Below, piece by piece: positions 1 to 54,071 of a stretch of 64,000 nt of DNA. The first letter of the stretch is position 1, and each line of letters starts with the position of its first letter. The notes beneath the pieces are model-generated. The model was not told the DNA's origin. It searched no databases and saw only the letters and a program-made list of their open reading frames with translations. The position numbers were made by a program, and so were the translations under genes. Origin of the DNA: a phage; the sequence record PX441839.1. One strand, written 5' to 3'.

Positions 1-2769
1 ACACTGGAAATTCGGCAAGGTGCTCTGTATGTGCGCCCACAAGAGACCCAGATCTCTCAAGATCCTGCAAACAAGATTGAACTGAAACCTGACGGTATCT
101 TTGTAGAAACCGTAAAAGGTGATAAGGGAGATACAGGTGAGCAAGGACCAGCAGGTCCAGAAGGTCCTCAGGGTCCAGCAGGTAAAGACGGCGCACCTGG
201 TGTAGAAGGTCCTCGTGGACCAGAAGGTGAAAGAGGTCCGGCTGGAATCGGCATCAATGTTATTGCTCAGTTGGCAACTGTTGATCAGCTTCCTCCTGTA
301 GAGAACTACGAAGATGGTGACACCTTCGTTATTGATGGTCACTTCTGGACTAAAACTACAGTAGGTGATACATCCCAGTGGACTGATGTCGGATCTTTCA
401 TTGGACCAGAAGGTCTGGATGCCTATGAGGTTGCTGTACAAGATGGTTTCGAAGGTACAGTTGATGAATGGTTGGCAAGCCTTCGTGGTGCTGACGGTAT
501 CGGTCTGCAACTCTTAGGTTCATTCAGAAGCGTTGATGACCTCCCAATGGAAGATAACAAGGCAGGTGATGCCTATATCGTCCAAGAGCAGATGTGGGTT
601 TGGGACACTGTTCAGTGGGCACCTGTTGGACAGGTTGGCCCAGAAGGTAAGTCAGCGTATCAAGTTTGGTTGGCTAATGGTAACACTGGTTCGCAGAATG
701 ACTTCTTGGCATCCTTAAAAGGAGAGAAAGGAGACAAGGGCGATAAAGGTGATAAAGGAGACAAGGGTGAAGACGGTAAGAACGCCAACGCCGTAAACAT
801 TCTTGGATCTGTTGAAACCGAGGCTGACCTTCCTGACGGTGCTGATGCCGGGGACGCATACCTGATCGGAGAGAACGTATGGGTATCCGATGGCGCAGGT
901 AAATGGACAGACCTTGGCTCTTTCCGTGGTCCAGAAGGTCCTCGTGGAGTACCTGGTGAAAAGGGTGACAAGGGCGATACTGGTGCTCAAGGTGGTACAG
1001 GTAAGAGCAACTATGACCTCGCTGTAGAGGAAGGATTCACTGGAACTGTTGCCGAATATTTGGAATCCATCAAGGGTGAAAAAGGAGACCAAGGTCCACA
1101 AGGTCCTCGTGGACTGACCGGACCTAAAGGCGACAAAGGTGACACTGGAACAGGACTTACAGTTAAAGGATCTGTTGCATCTGTAGAAGACCTACCTGCT
1201 GCTGGAAATGCAGAAGGTGATGCCTATTTCGTTGGTACTCATATGTATGTTTTCCTGTCTGGTGCATGGGAAGATGTCGGTGAGTTGAAAGGTGAAAAAG
1301 GCGATAAGGGTGACACAGGACCTAAGGGAGATACAGGCCCACAGGGTCCAGCGGGTGAGCGTGGTCCTCAGGGTGTTCAAGGTCTTAAAGGCGACACTGG
1401 CCCAGTGGGTCCTCAAGGACCAGCAGGTAGGGACGGTGTAGACGGTACAAACGGAACCGATGGTAAAGACGGAACAGGTCTGATGCCAAAAGGCACCGTT
1501 GCAACTCAGGCGGATCTCCCTGCAACTGGTAATTCTATCGGTGATTTTTATACGGTAGAAGAGGAAGGAAGGGGTTACGCTTGGAACGGAACAGAGTGGA
1601 TCTACTCCGGTGTGGCTCAGGGTCCTCAAGGACCAGCGGGTGAAAACGGTGCTGATGGTGCTACAGGTCCTCAAGGCCCACAGGGTCCTAAGGGTGACAA
1701 AGGAGACATGGGGCAAGGTATTCTGCCGAAGGGAACTGTCCCGACTCAGGCTGACCTTCCTACCGAAAACAATGAAATTGGTGACTTCTATGTTGCTGAT
1801 GACACTGGAATCGGTTACGCTTGGAATGGCACAACCTTCATTAACTCTGGGATTTCTCGTGGTAAAGACGGGGAACAAGGTCCACAGGGTGAACAGGGTA
1901 TTCAAGGTGAGCAGGGTCCTGCTGGTCCTAAGGGAGATACGGGGGATACTGGTCCTCAAGGCCCACAGGGGGATATTGGCCCAGGTGTAGAAATCATCGG
2001 TAAGCTGAATGATCCTTCTGAACTTCCGGCAACCGGAGAACTTGGTCAAGGATACCTGATCGAGGGTGACTTCTGGGGTTGGACAGGTCAAGCTTACGAG
2101 AACTTGGGACAGATTCGCGGACCTGCGGGTCCGGTTGGTCCACAAGGGAACCCAGGTCCTGTAGGTGAGCAGGGTGTTCGTGGTGAGAAGGGTGATCAAG
2201 GCTCCTTATGGATCGTCTTTGGTAGAGAACCTACTCCTGCTGATGGTCGCGTAGGTGACTACTTCATGAACTCTTCCACTCTGGAGTTCTTCCGTAAGAC
2301 TTCTGCAACCAACTGGGCATCTCTTGGTTACATGGGTGGCGGTAACGTCTACGATGCACCTAAAGATGGGAAGCAGTACACCCGTTTAGATGGTGATTGG
2401 GAAGTTCTTTCTGTTACTGAGGCACCTGAGGACGGTGGGTACTACATCCGTACCAATGGTCAATGGCAAAAATTAGATCGTTACGACCTCCGTGTTGTTG
2501 AAACTACAGGTGCTATGGACGTATCTGTGAGTAACTGCTTCAAGGTTGACGGGACGGCTAATAAAACCATGTCTCTCACAGGACTCCCTCCTGACAGGGC
2601 GATGACTATTGTTATTCGCTTCTTGGGTAAAGGGGCGCAGTTGACTTGGCCTTCAAACCTTGCTTGGTCAAATGGTACACCTCCTGCTCTTGGCACAACC
2701 CGTACAGTGGTAACTCTGTTCTGGGACGGTGAATTCCTGACTGGGACTCAGGCGATGACTGTTGACTAA
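1..2769 (+). CDS. collagen-like repeat fiber protein (5-prime partial)
   Basis: ORF 31..2769 has no in-frame stop back to the window edge. Long Gly-X-Y tracts ([25 protein letters not shown]...) are interrupted by at least 6 copies of a ~50-aa module (DLP...GD.Y...W.W.G). TAA stop is followed by a terminator. Confidence 0.8.
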   Translation, partial: TLEIRQGALYVRPQETQISQDPANKIELKPDGIFVETVKGDKGDTGEQGPAGPEGPQGPAGKDGAPGVEGPRGPEGERGPAGIGINVIAQLATVDQLPPVENYEDGDTFVIDGHFWTKTTVGDTSQWTDVGSFIGPEGLDAYEVAVQDGFEGTVDEWLASLRGADGIGLQLLGSFRSVDDLPMEDNKAGDAYIVQEQMWVWDTVQWAPVGQVGPEGKSAYQVWLANGNTGSQNDFLASLKGEKGDKGDKGDKGDKGEDGKNANAVNILGSVETEADLPDGADAGDAYLIGENVWVSDGAGKWTDLGSFRGPEGPRGVPGEKGDKGDTGAQGGTGKSNYDLAVEEGFTGTVAEYLESIKGEKGDQGPQGPRGLTGPKGDKGDTGTGLTVKGSVASVEDLPAAGNAEGDAYFVGTHMYVFLSGAWEDVGELKGEKGDKGDTGPKGDTGPQGPAGERGPQGVQGLKGDTGPVGPQGPAGRDGVDGTNGTDGKDGTGLMPKGTVATQADLPATGNSIGDFYTVEEEGRGYAWNGTEWIYSGVAQGPQGPAGENGADGATGPQGPQGPKGDKGDMGQGILPKGTVPTQADLPTENNEIGDFYVADDTGIGYAWNGTTFINSGISRGKDGEQGPQGEQGIQGEQGPAGPKGDTGDTGPQGPQGDIGPGVEIIGKLNDPSELPATGELGQGYLIEGDFWGWTGQAYENLGQIRGPAGPVGPQGNPGPVGEQGVRGEKGDQGSLWIVFGREPTPADGRVGDYFMNSSTLEFFRKTSATNWASLGYMGGGNVYDAPKDGKQYTRLDGDWEVLSVTEAPEDGGYYIRTNGQWQKLDRYDLRVVETTGAMDVSVSNCFKVDGTANKTMSLTGLPPDRAMTIVIRFLGKGAQLTWPSNLAWSNGTPPALGTTRTVVTLFWDGEFLTGTQAMTVD

Positions 2770-2810: not shown

Positions 2811-3461
2811 ATGGCAGTAGATCCAAACAGCAAGATTGAAGCTTGGACACCCATGATCAGAATTTCTGACATGAAATATCCAGTTTACCTGCGTGACTAT
2901 CTTGAGGAGTACAAAAACGTCAGTATCGGGTCTTTCGTGTGGGAAAGCGGGATGCGTGAGGTTGGATACTTTAAAGTCCACGATGTAGAAATCCCTATTG
3001 GGGATGTAGTCGTAGAAGGTGAACCAGCCTATAACGAGGAAGATGAACTTTGGTATAAGACTTGGATTGTCAGGGATTTCACCGAAGAGGAGATTGCTCA
3101 CAATCTCTATATGGCAAAAGAGGACGCTAAGTCTCAAGCTTATCGAATTTTTACCAATGATCAATCTTCCGGTGTTCTGGTAGATGGAGATCAGTTTAAT
3201 GTTGAGCCTCGTGAGATTACCAACTTAAGAGGTACACTCGAACTTGCCAATTTAGCAGGTGATGAGGAGAAGTTTCTTGTTCGCAAGGCAGACTTTTCAA
3301 TTCTGGAGCTTACTGCAAAAGAGACTGTTGAAAAGGTCACAAAAATAATTCTAGAGCAAGGAAAGTTACACCAAGCCCTTCTGAGCCATGTAAAAGAAAT
3401 CATGGATGCGGAAGACAGTGATTTAATCCCACCAACCCCACACACTTTCTTAGGAGAATAA
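2811..3461 (+). CDS. hypothetical protein (structural module)
   Basis: 216-aa ORF, AAAGGAG RBS about 7 nt upstream of ATG, co-oriented with structural genes. Confidence 0.6.
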   Translation: MAVDPNSKIEAWTPMIRISDMKYPVYLRDYLEEYKNVSIGSFVWESGMREVGYFKVHDVEIPIGDVVVEGEPAYNEEDELWYKTWIVRDFTEEEIAHNLYMAKEDAKSQAYRIFTNDQSSGVLVDGDQFNVEPREITNLRGTLELANLAGDEEKFLVRKADFSILELTAKETVEKVTKIILEQGKLHQALLSHVKEIMDAEDSDLIPPTPHTFLGE

Positions 3462-3462
3462 T

Positions 3463-3813
3463 ATGTCTGCAATCGGCGGAACATCTTTAGGTCTGATTAC
3501 TGGCTATGCGATCATGGATCAGTCAACTGGTGAAACAAAAACCATCTCCGAGTTACTCAGTGGTGCTGGGGGCGGCACACCGGGTCCTGTTGGACCTAAG
3601 GGAGATCAGGGTGAAGTTGGACCTCAAGGACCTAAGGGCGACACAGGCCCTGCTGGACCGCAGGGTCCTCAAGGGGAGCAGGGTGTAGGTATTGCACATG
3701 CCAATACAAAAATTGATGGACGTAATGTAACCATTATGTTTACGATGACGGATAACACAGTGAAAGAAGTTGTTTTCACAATTCCTGAACCAACCCCGAC
3801 CCCCTCTGCCTGA
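3463..3813 (+). CDS. small collagen-like repeat protein
   Basis: 116 aa; Gly-X-Y tract [37 protein letters not shown]; AGGAG RBS; start overlaps previous stop (TAATATG). Confidence 0.65.
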   Translation: MSAIGGTSLGLITGYAIMDQSTGETKTISELLSGAGGGTPGPVGPKGDQGEVGPQGPKGDTGPAGPQGPQGEQGVGIAHANTKIDGRNVTIMFTMTDNTVKEVVFTIPEPTPTPSA

Positions 3814-3825
3814 TATATTTACACC

Positions 3826-3848
3826 ACCGCCCTTCGGGGCGGTTTTCT
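3826..3848 (+). terminator. rho-independent terminator
   Basis: ACCGCCC-TTCG-GGGCGGT hairpin followed by a T-run. Confidence 0.6.
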
Positions 3849-3870
3849 TGTATCTGCTTAAGGAGAAATT

Positions 3871-4545
3871 ATGGCAAAGCTTAAGGGTATTACTGGAAAT
3901 CAAAATGGGGTATTCTATGGTTATGCCCTCTATGATTTAAAATCTGAGAAGCTTATTCCTTTTAATGAGATTGGGGTAGGAGGCGGAGAAGCAGAGCAAG
4001 GTCCGGTAGGTCCTGTTGGACCACAAGGACCTAAAGGTGACAAAGGTGATCCTGGACCTCAAGGTTTGAGAGGTCCTCAAGGTCCTCAGGGACCTAAAGG
4101 TGATCCTGGCGCAAAGGGTGATGAAGGGATCGATGGTGCTGTTGGACCACAAGGTCCAAAAGGGGATAGGGGAGAACCAGGACCAGAAGGACCACAAGGT
4201 CCAATCGGACCCCGTGGACCAGTGGGACCTGCGGGAGCGACGGGTCTTAACTGGAAGGGACAGTATTCTGACTCTGTTACTTATCTTCTTGACGACGCTG
4301 TCGCGTTTAATGGTGCAACCTACTTTTCTGTCAAGGAGTCAACAGGGATAAGCCCAGCGGAAGATACAGTTCAAGAATACTGGGCTGTAATGGCAGCTTC
4401 TGGGGTAAAGGGAGACCAAGGTCCACAAGGTCCCGTGGGACCAGTGGGTCCTCAAGGTGAAAGAGGTGAACAGGGTATTCAAGGACCGAGAGGTCCAGTT
4501 GGAGAGACAGGACCTGCTGGACCTCGCGGACCGGAAGGGATTTAG
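3871..4545 (+). CDS. collagen-like repeat protein (ends at in-frame TAG)
   Basis: 224 aa with several Gly-X-Y tracts and a globular insert ([24 protein letters not shown]...). The stop is TAG at 4543-4545 and the same frame continues as collagen-like sequence. Confidence 0.6.
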
Positions 4546-4860
4546 GGACCACAGGGACCTCAAGGTATTCAGGGTCCTCAAGGTAAAAAGGGAGTTAATT
4601 GGAGGGGGAACTGGTTTAGAAACACCACATACACGAAAGATGACGCTGTTTATTTTGAAGGTACGAGTTGGATTTGCGATATAGACCATTCCTCGTCAGA
4701 TGACAATAAACCGGGAAGCCCTCAAAGATTTAAGTGGGCAGTTTTCGCCAAGAAAGGGGAAGACGGTCCTCAAGGACCTGCGGGAGAGCCAAAGAAAATC
4801 AACCATGTACTTCGGAATTGCTCCTGGAAATGGGGTGACATCATTCCTTGGACTTCCTAA
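4546..4860 (+). other. collagen-like reading frame continuing after the TAG, no start codon of its own
   Basis: Same frame as 3871..4545 encodes GPQGPQGIQGPQGKKG, a second copy of the NW.G....TY..DDAV.F.G module, and GEDGPQGPAGEP, then a TAA stop at 4858-4860. Confidence 0.4.
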
Positions 4861-5203
4861 TTCACCTACCCTTATGTTGGCGATACGGGGATTGGCGGAT
4901 AAGAATATTTCCGTAGGGCTTGTCTCTGGCGGTGCAGACAAGAGAGTTTCTTACAGATTTAGCTCTTTGTATGGTGGAGGTGGTGTTGATGGTCAATTTA
5001 ACCAATCTTACAACTTAACAAATGGTCTTCCTTTTATGGTTGACACACTCTATTACATGGACTCTCAAGAGAACCAAGTGATACTTATAAGTGATCTTGA
5101 AACTGGACAGGTATGGAGAGCGGATATGTGGGGAATAAACAGAAGATATTTTGTCGAGGTCTTTGAATTGACCGATGGCCCACAAGAGTACAAAATATAT
5201 TGA
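4805..5203 (+). CDS. hypothetical protein (possibly a C-terminal domain joined to the collagen-like gene by a frame change)
   Basis: +1-frame ORF from ATG 4805 (MYFGIAPGNG...); no convincing RBS; overlaps the end of the collagen-like frame. Confidence 0.35.
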   Translation: MYFGIAPGNGVTSFLGLPNSPTLMLAIRGLADKNISVGLVSGGADKRVSYRFSSLYGGGGVDGQFNQSYNLTNGLPFMVDTLYYMDSQENQVILISDLETGQVWRADMWGINRRYFVEVFELTDGPQEYKIY

Positions 5204-5208
5204 TAACT

Positions 5209-5236
5209 AGCCACCTTCGGGTGGCTTTATTTTTTA
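5209..5236 (+). terminator. rho-independent terminator
   Basis: AGCCACC-TTCG-GGTGGCT hairpin followed by TTTATTTTTT. Confidence 0.6.
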
Positions 5237-5264
5237 TGACTTTCGTAACGATATGTGGTAATAT
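5236..5264 (+). promoter_or_regulatory. putative sigma70/sigmaA-type promoter with extended -10 (TGgTAATAT)
   Basis: TGnTAATAT about 25 nt upstream of the RBS of the 5290 gene; weak -35 (ATGACT). Confidence 0.4.
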
Positions 5265-5289
5265 GTAATCTAACAATAATGGAGGTTAT

Positions 5290-5820
5290 ATGACCAACGA
5301 AGAACTGATTGAACTGGTCAGGGCTTTCCTCGGCAACGCTGATTCAGAAACCCTGCCTGATAACATAATCCTTCTGTTTTACAATAAGTGGGGGTTGTCT
5401 ATGGATCTAGACAATCACCCAGAAAGATTTCCAAACGTGCTATACAATACGGTTGTAGACTGCGTAAGATGGTTAATTGCTCAAGAGGTTTCAAGTGGTG
5501 CATCCTCAATAACTGAGCGATTTGAAAAGATAGGTGATGAAACTATCTCTGTGAAGGGAGGTTCATCCTGGAAATCGTGGCAAGACTTCCTTGAATGGCT
5601 TCTTCTGAACCCTGATTACATAGATCCCTCATTGGCTATGAACTCCTCGCTGGTGATCATAGGTGGTGTAAGAAAGGACAGATTCATGTCTGTTAAGAAC
5701 AACCCCAATTCTTATAATGGGTTTATGGAACAGGGGGTTTTCCCTACTCCAGCGATACCGAAGAAGGCTAAATGGCCCGGAGGCGGTGGAGGTTATCGCA
5801 GTAGCCCGTGGCTTCGATAA
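5290..5820 (+). CDS. hypothetical virion protein (possible head-tail adaptor)
   Basis: 176 aa; GGAGG RBS; N-terminus (EELIELVRAFLG...) loosely resembles gp6-like connector proteins; sits between fiber genes and the tail genes. Confidence 0.5.
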   Translation: MTNEELIELVRAFLGNADSETLPDNIILLFYNKWGLSMDLDNHPERFPNVLYNTVVDCVRWLIAQEVSSGASSITERFEKIGDETISVKGGSSWKSWQDFLEWLLLNPDYIDPSLAMNSSLVIIGGVRKDRFMSVKNNPNSYNGFMEQGVFPTPAIPKKAKWPGGGGGYRSSPWLR

Positions 5821-44228: not shown

Positions 44229-44998
44229 CAAAGTTTAGCAGGTTCGTTAATCCTGCCCACACCATTACGTGTTGCCATACGGTTTCCCGTAGGATCGGAC
44301 TATATCACCACCCTTTTCAGGGTGCTCCCCATTTCGACGCCACTTGGTCGCCTACGCCTCTCGGCTAGTCTCTGAACGTTAAGACCACGTATACTTCTCG
44401 GAAATATGCTTCCACTGCCGACGCTGCTTAATGGCTCGTACTGTTGCATAGGGGAATCCCATGTCGCGTACCTCTGCCTGGCTCATTCCGCTTTCAAGAA
44501 GCTGGCAAATGGTCATCACTTCGTCTTCTGTGAGGGCACTATTAGCATTGTTGATACCTTCCGCGCTGCGACAGTTGTGGCGATAGGCGTTCTCTATGTT
44601 TTTGCCTCTCGTAACCCACTGTAGGTTGTCTTTGTGGTTATTCCTTTTATCGGGCCACTTGTGATCAACCTCTGGAAGATTGTTCGGATTGGGAACAAAA
44701 CATTCTGCCACCAAAACATGGACCGCCTTTGTCGTCGCCTTTTTGTTAAGGTAAAGACTGACAATTGCATACCCTCTTCCATTATCAACATGCTTCATAG
44801 GTTTACCTCGACGACCTATAATGGTCCCGTCCTCGTAAACTTTATATCCGAAATAGTCTTTGTACTCCACGTAGTCCTCTTCGCTGCTGATTAACATAGC
44901 TGCACTTTAGTTTATTATTAACCCAGTGTCAACCTTAGCCTTCCAGCAATTAAAGGAGTTTTCGATGTAGGTTGCCCTACAAAGCCACAATGTTACTT
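44229..44998 (-). mobile_element. group I-like intron in the DNA polymerase gene, carrying an HNH homing endonuclease ORF
   Basis: About 770 nt separate the exon 1 end (...VRRIIYYH) from exon 2 (DEYQLEVP), splitting motif C. It contains an HNH ORF and an 80-nt core conserved with the second intron. Boundaries approximate. Confidence 0.55.
44379..44897 (-). CDS. HNH homing endonuclease
   Basis: 172 aa; HVLVAECFVPNPNNLPEVDHKWPDKRNNHKDNLQWVTRGKN is an HNH-type motif; lies between the polymerase fragments. Confidence 0.75.
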   Translation of the reverse strand: MLISSEEDYVEYKDYFGYKVYEDGTIIGRRGKPMKHVDNGRGYAIVSLYLNKKATTKAVHVLVAECFVPNPNNLPEVDHKWPDKRNNHKDNLQWVTRGKNIENAYRHNCRSAEGINNANSALTEDEVMTICQLLESGMSQAEVRDMGFPYATVRAIKQRRQWKHISEKYTWS

Positions 44999-47326
44999 AT
45001 GGTAATAGATAATACGACGAACTCCCTCGTCATACCATCCCTTCTTGACCAGTTGCCAGTGAAGCAAGATTCCAACCAGGTCAAATAGTGCTGCACCACC
45101 ATTCTGCTGAAATGCGTTCAACAGGGAGTGCTTTGAACGAGTCCAAATCTTACGCCCATCCAAACCATAGATGAATCTTTTCCCTGTCGCTTCCCAGAAT
45201 TTCTCCAGCGCTTCTTTACGACCTTTTAATCCGATGTTGCTATCCCAGAATGCGTTGATTACATCCTGTGCCTTATCTACTGTGATTCCAAGCATGGATG
45301 CAATCTTGGGTGCCTGAGCGCCGTACATGATTCCATACGTGATACTCTTTCCCTCGCCACGAGAAACCTTCTTCCCCGCTGCCTTTGTGTATGCCTCTGC
45401 GTTTCGGGTGTGGGCGTCCCCCGACTCCATGATTTCAAGGTAAGCGCCACCATCGAACTCATACGCACCCCAAGCCGCAATCATACCTTCCAGGTTAGAA
45501 CCATCAATACCCACTTGGTACTTACCCTTTGGTGCTCGCCAAAGGGAACGCATCTCATAACCAAACAACACCTTCGGATCAGGCTTAGGCATGTTTGCGC
45601 AGATCGTGTGCTTACGACGCCCAGTGTTGGTAATCCCTGAGAACCTTGCTGGTAATCGACCATCAATCTTCAAGCGTGGGTGGTTAAGAAGTCCAGTATC
45701 AACCTTATCCTCTTTCAGTGGATCAAGGACAGATCGTCGGTTACGTGCAGATAACCACTGAACAATGCCTTTAGCCATCGCACCATCCACCTTTTCCAAG
45801 TTTGGGCACAATCCCTGCTGGTCTTTCAACTGAGGGCTTGTTGGCAATGCACGGGCCTTCTTACGGAAGAATTTGAACATCTTCTCCTTGTCTGCCCACT
45901 GCTTAGGGGTAATGTGCAAGTTCTTAAGGATAAGATCACGATATTCTGTCTGATCTAGTTGCTCAATATACTCCCGCACAATTGCATCAACTTCACCATC
46001 CGGACGTTGCTTTTTAAACTGGTCCTTTGTTGCATCCTTTGTACGCCAAATTGTTGGAATCCAACCCGCATCTCGGATGAGGAACTTCTTAACATCATCC
46101 TGGTTACCGATACGCATCGGAATCATTATATCTGGCATGGTCTTATTCTTCAAGTCCGCCAAAGCCCGTGCCATATCCTCTGGAGGTAGTGGCTCCAGTG
46201 TGGATTGTTTTTCGTTCTGACTACGAATGAACTGAGGCATTTGATCCTCATCTTCCACCCCGTGGTCATTACAGTATTTAATAGCCGCAGCCGTAAGTGA
46301 ACCATCTGCCTTAAATGCTTTAGCCGGAGGCCCCTTGAAATCAAGGGCTTCCCAATTAATATTGTATCCTAACTTCTCCAGCCATTTCCAACCTGTGCCG
46401 GACAATGTCCCGTCACCCTTGAAAGGTTTGGATGGGAAAGTTGGTTGTGCGGATTTAGCCATCTCTTTCTTCGGAAGCTGAGGCTCAACCTCTTCCTCAA
46501 TCTTCTTCATGAAGGCATCAACCGTATCGCGGAGTTTCAGCGCCGCCTCTATGTCAAAATCAACACCTTGGATTTCTTGCTCAATCATCAGGTAATCGGT
46601 AAGCATACCTCGACGAAGAGAGTCTTTCCAGTTGATCATTTTATATTTTGTTGGGACACGCTCATCTTTAAACATGAAGCGTTTATCATCTGGGTACGCA
46701 TCGCAGGTGATTTCCTTCATAAGGGCGTCCCACACCTTTTCGTTGATGATAACGTCCTCAATGATACGGTCACAATACTTCCACAACGGGAGTCCACGCC
46801 AATCATCAATGGCGACTTTCAGGTTGGCTACTCTCATACCCCATGCTTCCAGACCATGAGGGCCAACAGGTTTCATCTTTCCTGTGACAGGGTTTTTAAC
46901 CATTTCTGGGCAACCCTTCGGCAATGGGCGGTCAGGGTAGAGTGTACGAGACATAGACAAGGAGTCAAACAGGTTAACCTGTTTTCCATTGATCGTTCCC
47001 ATGCACTTAGGATCGGCAAACATATCGTATTGTGTACCGAACAGCTTCTTGAACAGACGTAAGTCATATCCAAACAAGTTGTGAATAACAATGCTACTAG
47101 GGACTTCTGTGAACCATCTATTAAGGTCAGAGAAGTTCATTACATGCAGATTGAATCCCTTCGCATTAACGAAGTTCAAAGCCTCTTGATAACCCTCTCG
47201 CGCTGGGTCCATGAAGAGATACCAGTTATCCTTTTTGTACTCCTTGAAGAGGATGCAGTGAGCATGTAAGTTCTCCTCGTCAAGTAAACCAGATGCTTCC
47301 GCATCACCTACCCATAAACCTTTCAT
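44999..47326 (-). CDS. DNA polymerase family A, exon 1 (3-5 exonuclease and polymerase domains through the start of motif C)
   Basis: Motif A-like DGSNLEGM (D.S..E), motif B-like KSITYGIMYGA (K...YG..YG), N-terminal exonuclease-like region; ORF ends abruptly at ...VRRIIYYH-K-stop inside motif C. Confidence 0.8.
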
Positions 47327-49804: not shown

Positions 49805-50165
49805 ACCCCAAGGTGGTTACCAATTGCTCGTAATCCCAAGTATCCAGGTATGCTTTCTCTCCATGTTTGGCAAAACCTCGCCACTTATTGGTTCGATACA
49901 GGAACCAAAGTTGTTTCGCAACATTCTTATCATCAACATACCCCAGCAGAAATGCCCAACGGTGGGTTGGAATGAGGCCAACAGCAATACGATTAAGTTC
50001 GTCCCATTGGTTTGTTTTCACATTAAAAACCCAAAGTCGTTTCCTGATCACCTCTTTACTTTTCAGGAGGTCACGTAAATGTTCTGCACGTTTAATCATT
50101 GTGTCGTGTACATTCGCGGCACGGATCAGTGTGTTTTTGTTAACTTCGATCAAGGTGTTACTCAT
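49788..50165 (-). CDS. hypothetical protein
   Basis: Start set at internal Met (MSNTLIEV). Confidence 0.45.
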   Translation of the reverse strand: MSNTLIEVNKNTLIRAANVHDTMIKRAEHLRDLLKSKEVIRKRLWVFNVKTNQWDELNRIAVGLIPTHRWAFLLGYVDDKNVAKQLWFLYRTNKWRGFAKHGEKAYLDTWDYEQLVTTLGFEKHV

Positions 50166-50406
50166 GTTCTTCCTCCTCCGCAATCTCACCAATGGCAACA
50201 AACTGATCATGGTCAAGAGATACCCATGCACCAAGGATTCCGTTGTGTACCCAGAAGGTGAACATGTCACCGCTTTCGTCTACGGCGCAGTAATTTACAC
50301 CATCTTCGTCCTCGTATTCATTAATTACTTCAAGGAAGGACCCTACCCGTAAGACATTACTTAACGTTACCTTTATTTTCACCTTTGCCTCCAAAATCAT
50401 GTTCAA
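50158..50406 (-). CDS. hypothetical protein
   Basis: 82-aa acidic ORF. Confidence 0.4.
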   Translation of the reverse strand: MNMILEAKVKIKVTLSNVLRVGSFLEVINEYEDEDGVNYCAVDESGDMFTFWVHNGILGAWVSLDHDQFVAIGEIAEEEEHE

Positions 50407-50415
50407 GTTTAATGA

Positions 50416-50673
50416 TTATACTATCTTGTCACCAATGATGCAAGGAACATACACAGACCCGCCATTACTGTTGGTAATCTTTACTTTTGGGGATGAGGTC
50501 ATCAAAATATCCTCCTCATCCACCCCAAACCAGTCTTCACCATATTCCAGTAAGGCATTCAGTGTGCGAATTACGTAGATAGCTTCCTCTGTACCACAAT
50601 CGTAGAGATCCTCTTCACTCTCTTGTCGTTCAATGGCAGTACGTTTGTCCAGTTTCACAAAATAACGGCTCAT
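50416..50673 (-). CDS. hypothetical protein
   Basis: 85-aa ORF. Confidence 0.4.
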   Translation of the reverse strand: MSRYFVKLDKRTAIERQESEEDLYDCGTEEAIYVIRTLNALLEYGEDWFGVDEEDILMTSSPKVKITNSNGGSVYVPCIIGDKIV

Positions 50674-50876
50674 TTCTTTTTCCTCTTTGATTCAACTTTT
50701 GGTTCCACTAGTCGGGCTTGGTAAGAATGAGGTGTGACGTACCGCCATGTTTTCTTTAAGTGTTCAACAAGTTCTTTCAGGTTTTCTTCGTCGGTGGCCC
50801 AACCCAAGGTTAGGGCAGGATCACCTACCGACATCTGGCACTTGACATACCAACGGGTAACTGTAGGATGTTTCAT
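50670..50876 (-). CDS. hypothetical protein
   Basis: 68-aa ORF, 4-nt overlap with neighbours. Confidence 0.4.
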   Translation of the reverse strand: MKHPTVTRWYVKCQMSVGDPALTLGWATDEENLKELVEHLKKTWRYVTPHSYQARLVEPKVESKRKKK

Positions 50877-51127
50877 TTCATTACCTCCAGAAAGGATTTA
50901 AACTCTTCAACATTCCGTTTGTGTACAATTTGGGGCCAGTTTTTAAGAATATCTCGAAACTTTACATAGCGTTCTCGGAATCCAACCACCCCTCCAATAC
51001 ATAACAGGGTTACCCCTTCAACACCGACAAAAGTTACAACTTCCACAATCTTGGAGTTATCATACCCACGATTAACAACGAGATCCCCGATCTCAAAGTC
51101 AACATTTTCATTTGATGAATAGTTCAT
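50873..51127 (-). CDS. hypothetical protein
   Basis: 84-aa ORF. Confidence 0.4.
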   Translation of the reverse strand: MNYSSNENVDFEIGDLVVNRGYDNSKIVEVVTFVGVEGVTLLCIGGVVGFRERYVKFRDILKNWPQIVHKRNVEEFKSFLEVMK

Positions 51128-51700: not shown

Positions 51701-52532
51701 TCCCACCCGGTGCGATTCCTGGCACCCGCCTACACTTTCGTGCAGGAACAGACTATATCATCACCTTTCGGTGCTCTCCGCTTCGGGACCGCTTGGCCCT
51801 AACGCCTTTCGGCTAGTCGTTGAGGTTTTTGCACGTTCTGGGTACATCTTCCAAGAATACAAGTCCCCGACCTCTTTCCAATCCCTTCGGGAGCGGATAT
51901 TGAGGACTGCTGACCTTGTTACAGGTAATCCACTATTATCGACAATCTTCTGCGCTGACCAACCCTCAGAAAGAAGCCTACAAATTTTGTGAACCTCTGC
52001 CTCTGTGACTTTGGACCTGTAATGATCCTCTCCCCTCTTTGGAAGCTTATTGGCAATAGAGTGCTCAAGATTTTGCCTACCAGTGACCCATTCCAGGTCA
52101 TCTTTGTGGTTAAATTCCTTGCCTCTTTTATGATTAACTTCGGGTAAGTTCAGCGGGTTTGGAATATAAGTCTTAGCTACCAACCTGTGAACATACTCGG
52201 GCGTTCTCTTACCTTTAAGTATCACATTGACAAAATAATACCCTGTACTCTTGTTTCGAATGTTCTTCAAAAATTTATTTGTGAACAAACTAAATACCTT
52301 GCCATCTTCTGTTACAAGATATTTACTACCCTCTTCTATTGGTATCATGTTTCCCCCTTCTTTATTCTAACAAAAGGGTATAATACACAAAAGAATTTGA
52401 ATATGCAACTTACCTGCTGATTACCCAATCCTCTGTCTTTTCAAACATTCACGCCCACCCTTACGGGTCACGTTGTAGTGCCAGAGGCTCTAAGGGCTTC
52501 CCAGCAATTCAAAGAGTTTTACATGCGCTAAA
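51701..52532 (-). mobile_element. group I-like intron in the primase-helicase gene, carrying an HNH homing endonuclease ORF
   Basis: Separates helicase motif H4 (...GSRAMMR) from its continuation; contains an HNH ORF and a core segment homologous to 44300-44380. Confidence 0.55.
51761..52348 (-). CDS. HNH homing endonuclease
   Basis: HRLVAKTYIPNPLNLPEVNHKRGKEFNHKDDLEWVTGRQN, paralogous to the 44379 HNH; the C-terminal tail of the track ORF probably reads through intron RNA core. Confidence 0.65.
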   Translation of the reverse strand: MIPIEEGSKYLVTEDGKVFSLFTNKFLKNIRNKSTGYYFVNVILKGKRTPEYVHRLVAKTYIPNPLNLPEVNHKRGKEFNHKDDLEWVTGRQNLEHSIANKLPKRGEDHYRSKVTEAEVHKICRLLSEGWSAQKIVDNSGLPVTRSAVLNIRSRRDWKEVGDLYSWKMYPERAKTSTTSRKALGPSGPEAESTER

Positions 52533-54071
52533 TCAACGCATCATCGCACGAGAACCTGCAAACTGTGCCGACTGAACCTGACCACCAAATTCATGGGGTT
52601 TTCCAGATTCCGGTTTGTTCAAGTGACAGAAACAATAATATGTGAAACCTAAGTCCTTTGCAAGGATAGAGATCTCATCTGAAAATCGTTCCAGTTCTGT
52701 GTTAGCATCACCTGGTGACATACCTTGCACAAGTCGAGTAATTGGGTCGATAATAATATCTTCACAACCCTCCACCAAGACTGCGTGGCGGATTGCACCC
52801 TTCACCTCGTCCCATACTGCACGACCATAGTTGGAATAATAAATGATCTTATCGCCAACATAATCTGTAGCTTGGATTAGTTCTTCATGCTTGAAGTATC
52901 CACGTTGTCCTTCAAAGATTTCGTTACCCCAAACATCTCGGTAAGTCCCATCTTCCTGAGGGATCATTACCTTTTCTGCGTTAATGAAGTCCTTGTGGTA
53001 AATTTTACCTGCAACCTTCTTACAAGTGATGTCGTTCTCTTCTTCAAACTTAAAGATACCGACTTTCTTCTTGTCTTTTTCAATGATGTGCTCGACAAGT
53101 TGGTTAACAAACTCGGACTTACCGATCTTAACACCTGCACCAAGGAAGTATCCCTCTCCTTTACGACGACCCAGTGTCAACTTGGTCATGGTAGGCCAAG
53201 GCCATGATTTACCAAGTTTTGGAATCTCGTGCGCTTTGTCTCGAAATTGTGCATACGTAGAGAAACCTTCTGGTACATAGTCCTTTGGCTTCATTGCTGC
53301 CCAGAATAATTGGTCAGCCATTCCCTTGATGTACATGTCGCATGGGTCCATGTCCTCTGGGATGTCAACAACCTTCATCTGAGGAATTACTGAGTAAACC
53401 GCTGCAACAGCATCCTTACCTTTCATAATCCCCTTGGCCTTTTCTGCCTCCGTTGCACGATCAGCATCAAAAGCTACAATAATCTCTTCAAACTTGTTCA
53501 GAAGCTTGTAGTTGTTCTTCTGAGCTAGGTTCTGCACGGCATTAGATGTGCCGTTGGAAATTGAGACCACCGTGAAGTTTGGTTTACGTGCATTTCCATC
53601 CTTAGATTTATACTTTTCTCGGAGAACCTGCCACAACACTGCCGCATCGTACTCGCCCTCCGTGATAAAAATCATGCGACGTGAGGATTTATTTGCACCC
53701 TCCAGACCAAACAGGTCACAAGCGACAGATTGGAAACCAATCGTACTAAAGTGGCCCTTCTGTTGCTTAGGAATGGTCAGATCTCGCTTCTTAAAGCCGA
53801 CGATCTTACCCTCCAGTGTGTAGGGAAAATAGTGCGCCTCTGGTGTCATCCCATCCTTGGCAGACAGCTTAGTCCTGATTCCAAAGCGCTCTGCCGTCTT
53901 CTGATCGATACCTCGCTCAGGGATGGCTTTAAATGGGTAAGTTTTTACATCTTCTACTGTTTCTTCAACCTTGTTCATACGACCACCCCCTACTGAACGA
54001 GATACCGATGCCTTCGGGTTCTTGTACCCCGTCTTATAACCACCAAACAGACCTTCACCTAATGTGCTCAC
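52533..54071 (-). CDS. primase-helicase (T7 gp4-like), exon 1
   Basis: GTG start with AAGGAG RBS; TOPRIM-like ITEGEYDA; helicase Walker A GAGVKIGKSEF; DIIIDPITRL; ends within the H4-like region. Confidence 0.75.
   Translation of the reverse strand: MSTLGEGLFGGYKTGYKNPKASVSRSVGGGRMNKVEETVEDVKTYPFKAIPERGIDQKTAERFGIRTKLSAKDGMTPEAHYFPYTLEGKIVGFKKRDLTIPKQQKGHFSTIGFQSVACDLFGLEGANKSSRRMIFITEGEYDAAVLWQVLREKYKSKDGNARKPNFTVVSISNGTSNAVQNLAQKNNYKLLNKFEEIIVAFDADRATEAEKAKGIMKGKDAVAAVYSVIPQMKVVDIPEDMDPCDMYIKGMADQLFWAAMKPKDYVPEGFSTYAQFRDKAHEIPKLGKSWPWPTMTKLTLGRRKGEGYFLGAGVKIGKSEFVNQLVEHIIEKDKKKVGIFKFEEENDITCKKVAGKIYHKDFINAEKVMIPQEDGTYRDVWGNEIFEGQRGYFKHEELIQATDYVGDKIIYYSNYGRAVWDEVKGAIRHAVLVEGCEDIIIDPITRLVQGMSPGDANTELERFSDEISILAKDLGFTYYCFCHLNKPESGKPHEFGGQVQSAQFAGSRAMMR

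What the first reader, a model, noticed from the sequence alone, without database searches (positions are those of the whole stretch)
4543..4860. In-frame TAG inside a collagen-like gene, followed by a frame switch
The collagen-like ORF 3871..4545 ends at TAG, but the same frame continues directly as Gly-X-Y sequence (GPQGPQGIQGPQGKKG), then a second copy of the globular module seen earlier in the same protein, then more Gly-X-Y, to a TAA at 4858-4860. Every other plus-strand gene stop I checked is TAA or TGA, so this is the only TAG among them. In addition, the +1 frame carries a 133-aa domain (4805..5203) with no credible RBS that overlaps the end of the collagen frame. Possible explanations are amber read-through or suppression, a naturally pseudogenised or modular fiber gene, an assembly error, or a genuine recoding event.
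Basis: seen in the sequence. Interest (0 to 1): 0.6.

Follow-up and report, generated by a model that had tools for sequence, protein, structure and literature searches.

The report
Broken collagen-like phage fibre gene
A single phage gene for a collagen-like accessory fibre has been cut short by a premature TAG stop and a one-base insertion; this is most likely ordinary recent gene damage and not special decoding, though related phages carry their own separate breaks in the same gene.

Summary
Positions 3871-5203 are one modular gene of a Certrevirus-like myophage, a close relative of Salmonella phage SSBI34. Its layout is an N-terminal anchor, collagen, a CBM5/12-like knob, collagen, a second knob, short collagen, then a C-terminal beta-sandwich domain.

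The gene is interrupted twice:
- TAG at 4543-4545 sits in the Y position of an unbroken run of 22 Gly-X-Y triplets. SSBI34 has GAG (Glu) there.
- One extra base in the A-run 4795-4798 puts the C-terminal domain in the +1 frame.

Intact single-ORF orthologues exist, some with the same two-knob layout (CGG4-1 gp212) and some with the same C-terminal domain (P0002, P0006, P0007).

Evidence against programmed recoding:
- Neither lesion site is shared with any relative examined.
- No suppressor tRNA was found in the window or in the SSBI34 sequence scanned.
- No stimulatory RNA structure was found.
- No other gene carries an in-frame stop.

Random sequencing error and misassembly are unlikely: I found no other broken gene among ORFs with an SSBI34 match, apart from two split by group I intron-like inserts, and the repeats are only 60-80% alike.

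Best reading (about 0.7): young, real inactivating mutations that leave a 224-aa truncated fibre, as in the stf frameshift of laboratory lambda.

One oddity remains. SSBI34 has its own in-frame TAG elsewhere in the gene, and a metagenomic lineage has a +1 shift at AAA GGG TGA. dN/dS downstream of the TAG equals that upstream (about 0.07).

The parts
3826..3843 (+). Terminator-like hairpin ending the upstream 116-aa collagen-like gene. It marks the upstream boundary of the unit.
3860..3865 (+). AAGGAG ribosome-binding site, 5 nt before the ATG at 3871.
   Evidence: sequence
3871..3999 (+). N-terminal anchor domain (aa 1-43, [23 protein letters not shown]...). It is conserved in CR3 gp011, SSBI34, P0002, P0006 and P0007, and resembles the N-terminus of the neighbouring 116-aa protein.
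4000..4251 (+). Collagen run 1: 28 Gly-X-Y triplets.
4252..4401 (+). Globular knob 1 ([25 protein letters not shown]...), a paralogue of knob 2.
4402..4599 (+). Collagen run 2: 22 uninterrupted Gly-X-Y triplets, bisected by the TAG.
4543..4545 (+). In-frame TAG (codon 225, Y position of a triplet). SSBI34 has GAG (Glu) at the homologous codon (L001 6114-6116).
4600..4755 (+). Globular knob 2. It gives a CBM_5_12-like match (Pfam E 2.4e-4, below the gathering score).
4756..4791 (+). Collagen run 3 (GEDGPQGPAGEP). It belongs to the cassette from about 4752 to 5203 that differs from SSBI34.
4795..4798 (+). AAAA run, the most likely site of the one-base insertion. Removing one A gives ...GEPKKSTMYFGIAP..., which matches the linker length of intact homologues.
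4799..5203 (+). C-terminal beta-sandwich domain in the +1 frame, including TGA at 5201-5203. In eight of the nine hits (P0001-P0008, E 6.8e-18 or better), and in all seven inspected, it is the C-terminus of a longer protein. The AF2 model has pLDDT 86.8.
4858..4860 (+). TAA that closes frame 0 after 20 out-of-frame codons.
5209..5226 (+). Terminator-like hairpin just after the C-terminal domain. No terminator lies inside 3871-5203.

Best explanation
Positions 3871-5203 are one gene for a trimeric collagen-like accessory fibre.

**What the protein is.** An N-terminal anchor of about 43 aa attaches it to the virion. The gene sits between the capsid genes and the head-completion and neck genes, so a head or neck fibre is inferred. 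A collagen stalk carries two CBM5/12-like knobs and ends in an Ig/CBM-like beta-sandwich. The likely role is reversible binding to surface carbohydrate.

**What happened in this phage.** The gene carries two real DNA lesions:
- a G-to-T nonsense change (GAG to TAG) at codon 225;
- a one-base insertion in the A-run 4795-4798.

Ribosomes terminate at the TAG and release a 224-aa product: anchor, stalk, first knob and a collagen tail. The second knob and the distal domain are no longer made in useful amounts. They are a very young pseudogene remnant.

**Shown and inferred.** Shown: the gene architecture, the two lesions, the existence of intact orthologues, and the lack of recoding signals. Inferred: that the lesions are present in the DNA and are not errors, that the fibre is dispensable, and where it attaches.
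For: - **Intact single-ORF orthologues exist.**
  - CR3 gp011 is 456 aa and the PBES 02 orthologue is the same length.
  - The POP15 orthologue is intact if it starts at a TTG.
  - CGG4-1 gp212 (540 aa) has the same layout of two knobs, three collagen runs and a C-terminal domain.
  - P0002, P0006 and P0007 have the same N-terminus and the same C-terminal domain joined in frame by a linker such as GKTSQKLFGLVP.
- **The TAG interrupts one collagen segment.** The Gly-X-Y register is continuous through the TAG. SSBI34 has GAG at that codon.
- **The +1 ORF is not a separate gene.** The ATG at 4805 aligns with a variable internal residue (K, V, F or Y) and lacks a well-placed SD.
- **It is one transcription unit.** Terminator-like hairpins occur only before 3871 and after 5203.
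- **No genome-wide recoding.** In reciprocal tblastn with SSBI34, the only in-frame stops inside genuine coding alignments are those in this gene.
- **No suppressor tRNA.** There is no tRNA in the window. SSBI34 has 10 tRNAs and none is a suppressor; positions 50001-50930 of SSBI34 were not fetched.
- **No stimulatory RNA structure.** The fold z-score is -0.17 after the TAG and +1.5 after the A-run.
- **Not general poor sequence quality.** No other frameshifted gene was found among window ORFs with an SSBI34 homologue. The 24-mer flanking the TAG is unique, and the collagen repeats are only 60-80% alike.
- **Such lesions are real in relatives.** SSBI34 was sequenced on Illumina at about 500x coverage (PMC8879037), yet it has its own in-frame TAG in this gene.
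- **There is a precedent.** Laboratory lambda lost its side tail fibres through a frameshift in stf (PMC12617516, citing Hendrix and Duda 1992).
Against: - **No decay downstream of the TAG.** The downstream sequence shows the same strong purifying selection as the upstream sequence (NG86 dN/dS 0.078 against 0.070 versus SSBI34). The C-terminal domain keeps all 17 invariant family columns and folds confidently. The lesions are therefore either very recent or somehow tolerated in translation.
- **Too many broken lineages for comfort.** About three of the eight or so lineages I counted carry independent lesions in this gene: this window, SSBI34, and the L012/L013/L014/L018 lineage. That is more than simple drift would suggest. 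It hints at selection for truncation or at some functional tuning.
- **Two lesions in one young pseudogene is slightly unexpected.**
- **Raw reads were not available,** so I could not confirm that either lesion is present in the DNA.
Confidence: 0.7

Rival explanations
1. Functional recoding. The TAG is leaky or suppressed, by a host or phage amber suppressor or by near-cognate read-through. In addition, tRNA-Lys slips +1 on AAA_A (4795-4798). The phage would then make a major short fibre and a minor long fibre carrying the extra knob and the Ig-like domain, much as Ig-like domains are attached to structural proteins by frameshifting in other phages.
For: - Downstream purifying selection equals upstream, and the distal domain is intact.
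- AAA_A allows perfect re-pairing in the +1 frame and gives exactly the linker expected from homologues.
- SSBI34 also has an in-frame TAG followed by GG.
- The metagenomic lineage has AAA GGG TGA, which resembles the proven +1 site (AAA) CCC_UGA of the Listeria phage tsh genes (PMC5009743).
- The same review notes that Ig-like domains that land out of frame are sometimes expressed by frameshifting.
Against: - Recoding sites are normally conserved. Here each lineage has a different lesion at a different place, and most orthologues are plain ORFs.
- No suppressor tRNA was found in the window or in the SSBI34 sequence scanned.
- There is no downstream RNA structure.
- The A-site codon after AAA is ATC, a common Ile codon and not a stop or a rare codon (the codon frequency is my own knowledge).
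- Full length would need two independent inefficient events. A collagen homotrimer needs three long chains, so the yield would be negligible (inference).
- TAG also ends other ORFs in the window.
Confidence: 0.1
2. Artefact. One or both lesions are errors in the deposited consensus, for example an indel in the A4 homopolymer or a miscalled base in repetitive collagen-coding DNA. The real gene would then be a single intact ORF of about 443 codons.
For: - Each lesion is a single base, and correcting both restores a perfect orthologue-like ORF.
- One lesion lies in a homopolymer.
- No second sequence of this allele exists in any collection searched.
Against: - No other frameshift or in-frame stop was found across about 60 kb of coding sequence compared with SSBI34. 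Two random errors falling in one 1.3-kb gene is improbable, roughly 2% (my estimate).
- A G-to-T substitution creating TAG is not a typical consensus error.
- The flanking sequence is unique, and the repeats are too diverged to misassemble.
- The Illumina 500x SSBI34 genome and four or more independent metagenome assemblies carry comparable lesions in the same gene (PMC8879037).
Confidence: 0.1
3. A naturally split gene. The C-terminal domain is translated on its own from ATG 4805, as a separate subunit or chaperone, and the 224-aa protein is a complete functional short fibre.
For: - There is an ATG at 4805 at the very start of the domain.
- The family is modular, with members as short as 234 aa (P0002).
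- SSBI34 annotators also called a separate downstream CDS.
Against: - No SD lies at a working distance, and translational coupling is not possible because the upstream stop is 260 nt away.
- In all seven homologues inspected the domain is fused to a longer protein, and the Met position is not conserved.
- The 252 nt between the TAG and the A-run encode collagen and a knob, with no start codon of their own.
- The SSBI34 'separate CDS' is simply the in-frame continuation after its TAG.
Confidence: 0.05

Closest known systems
Frameshifted side-tail-fibre gene stf of laboratory lambda (lambda PaPa versus Ur-lambda; Hendrix and Duda 1992, as cited in PMC12617516)
   Same: An accessory, non-essential fibre gene of an isolated phage is broken by a single-base lesion. 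This leaves adjacent ORF fragments that read as one gene in relatives. The phage remains viable.
   Different: There are two lesions here (a nonsense change plus an insertion). The fibre is collagen-like and is encoded in the head/neck block and not in the tail-fibre block. No intact 'Ur' version of this allele has been found. Whether loss arose in the laboratory is unknown.
Orthologous intact fibres: Cronobacter phage CR3 gp011 (YP_006383026), PBES 02 ADU18_0118, Salmonella phage CGG4-1 gp212 (YP_009286533), and metagenomic P0002, P0006 and P0007
   Same: They share the N-terminal motif (K/R)GITGxxxGVxxGYxLYD, collagen runs, CBM5/12-like knobs and a swappable C-terminal domain. The Certrevirus members also share the same genomic position.
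   Different: All of these are single uninterrupted ORFs. C-terminal domains differ between lineages. The window's domain type occurs in P0001-P0007 but in no phage of the INPHARED collection.
Programmed +1 frameshifting that adds C-terminal Ig-like domains to phage structural proteins (Listeria phages PSA, A118 and A500, tsh gene, site (AAA) CCC_UGA; PMC5009743)
   Same: An Ig/CBM-like beta-sandwich lies in the +1 frame at the 3' end of a structural gene. A codon that can re-pair in +1 is present (AAA_A here, GGG_UGA in the L013 lineage).
   Different: In the window there is no stop or rare codon in the A site and no stimulator. The site is not conserved, and an upstream TAG would block most ribosomes first. 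Only the L013-lineage site resembles a 'shifty stop'.
Programmed stop-codon read-through (Q-beta A1 protein, at a UGA; from my own knowledge)
   Same: An in-frame stop is followed by a long, coding-looking extension of a virion protein.
   Different: In Q-beta the stop is conserved and the extension is essential. Here the stop is lineage-specific, relatives have Glu at that position, and the extension runs into a frameshift.

Membership tests
Phage collagen-like fibre proteins of the CR3 gp011 / CGG4-1 gp212 type | Collagen triple-helix repeats (Pfam PF01391) | tested here: met
   Pfam E 2.9e-21, 75 bits against a cutoff of 27. Gly-X-Y runs of 28, 22 and 4 triplets.
Phage collagen-like fibre proteins of the CR3 gp011 / CGG4-1 gp212 type | Conserved N-terminal anchor motif and the same position between the capsid and head-completion genes | tested here: met
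   The N-terminus aligns with SSBI34, CR3, P0002, P0006 and P0007. Synteny holds with SSBI34, CR3, PBES 02 and POP15.
Phage collagen-like fibre proteins of the CR3 gp011 / CGG4-1 gp212 type | Interspersed CBM5/12-like knobs | tested here: inconclusive
   Knob 2 matches PF02839 at E 2.4e-4, 21.5 bits, below the gathering score of 26.2. Many homologues carry a precomputed PF02839 hit.
Phage collagen-like fibre proteins of the CR3 gp011 / CGG4-1 gp212 type | C-terminal globular domain fused in frame, with the whole protein as one ORF | tested here: not met
   The domain is homologous (E 2e-26 to 7e-18) but lies in the +1 frame, and a TAG interrupts the ORF.
Programmed stop-codon read-through | The stop codon is conserved at the same position in relatives | tested here: not met
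   SSBI34 has GAG at that codon. CR3, CGG4-1, P0006 and P0007 have no stop.
Programmed stop-codon read-through | A stimulatory downstream RNA structure or a cognate suppressor tRNA | tested here: not met
   Fold z-score -0.17. No tRNA in the window. No CUA-anticodon tRNA in the SSBI34 sequence scanned (positions 50001-50930 not fetched). The rest of this phage's genome and the host were not available.
Programmed stop-codon read-through | The extended protein is detected | not testable with these tools
   This needs proteomics or a western blot.
Programmed +1 ribosomal frameshift (prfB, or Listeria phage tsh type) | A P-site codon whose tRNA can re-pair in the +1 frame | tested here: met
   AAA_A at 4795-4798 re-pairs as AAA.
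Programmed +1 ribosomal frameshift (prfB, or Listeria phage tsh type) | A slow A-site codon (stop or rare) or another stimulator | tested here: not met
   The A-site codon is ATC. No downstream structure was found (z +1.5). The SD-like GGGAGAG ends 6 nt before AAA, not the 3 nt of prfB (the prfB spacing is my own knowledge).
Programmed +1 ribosomal frameshift (prfB, or Listeria phage tsh type) | The shift site is conserved in homologues | tested here: not met
   P0002-P0007 join collagen and the domain in one frame.
Mutationally inactivated accessory fibre gene (lambda stf type) | Relatives have one intact ORF, and the lesions are simple point events | tested here: met
Mutationally inactivated accessory fibre gene (lambda stf type) | The gene is dispensable for plaque formation | not testable with these tools
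   Indirect support only: the viable isolate SSBI34 also carries a nonsense codon in the gene (PMC8879037).

The most novel reading that the evidence does not exclude
The repeated, lineage-specific interruptions of this fibre gene are not decay. The interruptions are TAG in this phage, a different TAG in SSBI34, and AAA GGG TGA in a soil or metagenome lineage. On this reading they are a way of setting the ratio of short to long fibres through leaky decoding: amber read-through, a +1 slip at AAA_A, or a GGG_UGA shifty stop. That would extend the known habit of attaching Ig-like domains by frameshifting to collagen-like head or neck fibres of enterobacterial myophages.
Probability: 0.08. Interest if true: 0.65.

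Novelty: new member of a known kind. Interest (0 to 1): 0.27.

Why it matters
- **Annotation.** The three fragments should be annotated as one disrupted gene and not as separate hypothetical proteins. SSBI34's two CDSs, QYC52519 and QYC52520, need the same correction.
- **Biology.** Independent lesions in about three of the eight or so lineages I counted suggest that this accessory fibre is often dispensable or counter-selected. That bears on host range, adsorption and plaque size in phages being considered for biocontrol of Salmonella and E. coli.
- **Recoding.** If the minority reading were right, it would add a case of read-through or +1 frameshifting in a collagen-like virion fibre. The AAA GGG TGA site of the L013 lineage is the best candidate to test.

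Tried and rejected
**Searches that found no second copy of this allele**
- An exact-pattern scan of IMG/VR for the TAG region, with NNN at the codon, gave no hit.
- Exact-protein look-ups of the 224-aa product and of the neighbouring 176-aa protein were not on record.
- A tblastn of the C-terminal domain against 50,697 phage records gave no match, and IMG/VR gave none.
- Word-indexed protein searches with the C-terminal domain alone and with the N-terminal 65 aa found nothing. Collagen words probably swamped the candidate list in the second search.
- Only the exhaustive HMMER scan and a search with the repaired full-length protein found relatives. None was closer than 56% identity in its best local alignment.
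- The metagenome scan with the neighbouring gene gave only three loci.

**Hypotheses considered and rejected**
- **Genome-wide TAG reassignment.** TAG ends other ORFs, and no other gene has an in-frame TAG.
- **A phage suppressor or Sec tRNA.** The SSBI34 paper claims tRNA-Sec, but ARAGORN finds Tyr(gta) and Ser(tga) instead, and UGA decoding would be irrelevant to TAG anyway.
- **Repeat-driven misassembly**.
- **Internal restart after the TAG.** There is no in-frame start with an SD.
- **A frameshift created by the recombination junction.** Homology with SSBI34 ends near 4751, about 45 nt before the frame change, and the third collagen run is still in frame 0.

Full report
**1. The observation**

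- ORF 3871-4545 has an AAGGAG site at 3860-3865, encodes 224 aa, and ends at TAG 4543-4545.
- The same frame continues GPQGPQGIQGPQGKKG, then a second globular module, then GEDGPQGPAGEP, to TAA at 4858-4860.
- The +1 frame is open from 4685. It encodes a 133-aa domain from ATG 4805 to TGA 5201-5203.
- A regular-expression scan shows that the TAG lies in the Y position of a single uninterrupted run of 22 Gly-X-Y triplets (aa 178-243). The stop therefore bisects one collagen segment and does not end a domain.

In a crude set of 93 non-overlapping ORFs, the 28 plus-strand ORFs of the structural block end TAA 19, TGA 8 and TAG 1. Three minus-strand ORFs also end in TAG. TAG is rare, but it is a normal terminator here.

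**2. What genome this is**

The window is a Certrevirus-like (Vequintavirinae) myophage. Its nearest relative in the phage collection is Salmonella phage SSBI34, MZ520832.

Flanking genes are 95-98% identical in protein to SSBI34: the upstream 912-aa collagen protein at 96.9%, and DNA polymerase and helicase at 98%. The two small collagen genes are only about 78% identical, with saturated synonymous sites (pS 0.72). This locus is therefore a swapped, mosaic hot spot.

A 2026 paper describes phage CF01 (PX441839.1, 142,427 bp, MiSeq) with 96% ANI to SSBI34 (PMC13031394). It may be the source of the window, but I could not verify this.

**3. It is one gene**

- *Same overall design as a single ORF.* CR3 gp011 is 456 aa and the PBES 02 orthologue is the same length. 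The POP15 orthologue is intact if it starts at a TTG. CGG4-1 gp212 (540 aa) has exactly two knobs, three collagen runs and a C-terminal domain.
- *The C-terminal domain belongs to longer proteins.* It found nothing in phage records or by word-indexed search. An exhaustive HMMER scan of 1.84 billion representatives found nine hits, eight of them at E 6.8e-18 or better. In all seven inspected, the domain is the C-terminus of a longer protein.
- *Three hits are clear orthologues.* P0002, P0006 and P0007 have the same N-terminus, and collagen is joined in frame to the domain by a short linker (...GTPGKTSQKLFGLVP...).
- *The frame change is a single base.* The window's Met at 4805 aligns with a variable internal residue. 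Deleting one A from AAAA (4795-4798) gives GEPKKSTMYFGIAP, the expected linker length.
- *One transcription unit.* Terminator-like hairpins bracket the whole unit at 3826-3843 and 5209-5226, with none inside.

**4. Is it recoding?**

Evidence against:
- SSBI34 has GAG (Glu) where the window has TAG (L001 6114-6116).
- No tRNA is encoded in the window. SSBI34's ten tRNAs include no suppressor in the sequence scanned; positions 50001-50930 were not fetched.
- RNA downstream of the TAG and of the A-run folds no better than shuffled sequence, with z-scores of -0.17 and +1.5.
- Reciprocal tblastn shows that the only in-frame stops inside genuine coding alignments are those of this gene.
- The +1 slip AAA_A has a common Ile codon in the A site.
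- The full-length protein would need two independent rare events, in a protein that must trimerise (inference).

Evidence that keeps the idea alive:
- dN/dS against SSBI34 is 0.070 upstream and 0.078 downstream of the TAG.
- The distal domain keeps all 17 invariant family columns.
- Ig-like domains are known to be attached to phage structural proteins by +1 or -1 frameshifting, sometimes after landing out of frame by recombination (PMC5009743).

**5. Is it an artefact?**

- No other frameshifted gene was found among window ORFs with an SSBI34 homologue. The DNA polymerase and helicase genes are split by intron-like inserts, not by errors.
- The 24-mer flanking the TAG is unique, and the collagen repeats are only 60-80% alike.
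- Two random errors in one 1.3-kb gene out of about 60 kb is unlikely.
- Comparable lesions exist in well-covered relatives. SSBI34 (Illumina, about 500x; PMC8879037) has a single in-frame TAG at L001 6228-6230, where the window has GAA. Otherwise it reads in one frame to a different C-terminal domain.
- Metagenome contigs from four assemblies (L012, L013, L014, L018) are identical over the gene. All carry a +1 shift at GAC AAA GGG TGA TGA AGG inside the collagen, with the Gly-X-Y register kept.

**6. Conclusion**

The best-supported reading (about 0.7) is a modular collagen-like accessory fibre gene recently truncated by real point lesions, which leaves a 224-aa product. The closest analogue is the stf frameshift of laboratory lambda (PMC12617516).

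Rivals:
- functional leaky recoding, about 0.1;
- consensus error, about 0.1;
- a naturally split gene, about 0.05.

The unexplained residue is the recurrence of independent lesions in about three of the eight or so lineages I counted. This suggests selection for truncation or tolerance of it. The AAA GGG TGA site resembles the Listeria phage tsh shifty stop and deserves a direct test.

Noticed in passing
L001 5442-6731 (SSBI34 MZ520832 56372-57661): The SSBI34 orthologue is one reading frame with a single in-frame TAG (L001 6228-6230, TTT TAG GGG). The window has GAA (4657-4659) at that codon. GenBank annotates the gene as two hypothetical proteins (QYC52519, QYC52520). This is a nonsense lesion in the same gene, independent of the window's.
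   Followed up: yes
L013 2992-3990 (also L012, L014, L018): A more distant relative, assembled identically in four metagenome samples, has the orthologous gene split by a +1 shift at GAC AAA GGG TGA TGA AGG (stop at L013 3301-3303). The Gly-X-Y register is kept in the +1 frame. The site resembles the (AAA) CCC_UGA shifty stop of the Listeria phage tsh genes. No downstream structure was found (z -0.4).
   Followed up: partly
window 44276-45008 (-): A group I intron (Rfam RF00028, 54 bits against a gathering score of 50) interrupts the DNA polymerase I gene. It carries a 172-aa ORF (44379-44897) with a weak HNH_3 match. SSBI34 lacks the insert: its polymerase aligns to 47326-44999 and 44228-43932.
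   Followed up: partly
window 51729-52597 (-): A second insert splits the DnaB-type helicase/primase. SSBI34 aa 1-512 align to 54071-52536 and aa 493-665 to 51742-51218. The insert holds a 195-aa ORF (51761-52348, no Pfam hit) and gives a sub-threshold group I intron match (23.8 bits, E 0.0012).
   Followed up: partly
window 3400-5300 versus flanks: The two small collagen-like genes (3463-3813 and 3871-5203) are only about 78% identical in protein to SSBI34, with saturated synonymous sites. Genes on both sides are 95-98% identical. The C-terminal cassette from about 4752 to 5203 has no counterpart in SSBI34. This looks like a recombination hot spot for fibre modules.
   Followed up: partly
window 31-2769, 3463-3813, 3871-4545: Three collagen-like genes lie in a row between the capsid and head-completion genes. 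The 116-aa and 224-aa proteins share a similar N-terminal segment (about 40% identity over 75 aa). This suggests a common attachment site on the virion.
   Followed up: no
L004 41252-43443 (SSBI34): The SSBI34 paper reports two tRNA-Sec genes said to allow use of an internal stop codon. ARAGORN finds ten tRNAs there, including long-arm Tyr(gta) and Ser(tga), but no Sec and no suppressor anticodon.
   Followed up: yes
L020 2267-3448 (Pectobacterium phage POP15): The POP15 orthologue is annotated from an internal Met (2324). The conserved N-terminus (M)KGITGEQNGVYYGY begins at a TTG at 2267, preceded by AAGGAG. The deposited start is probably wrong, and the gene is intact.
   Followed up: yes
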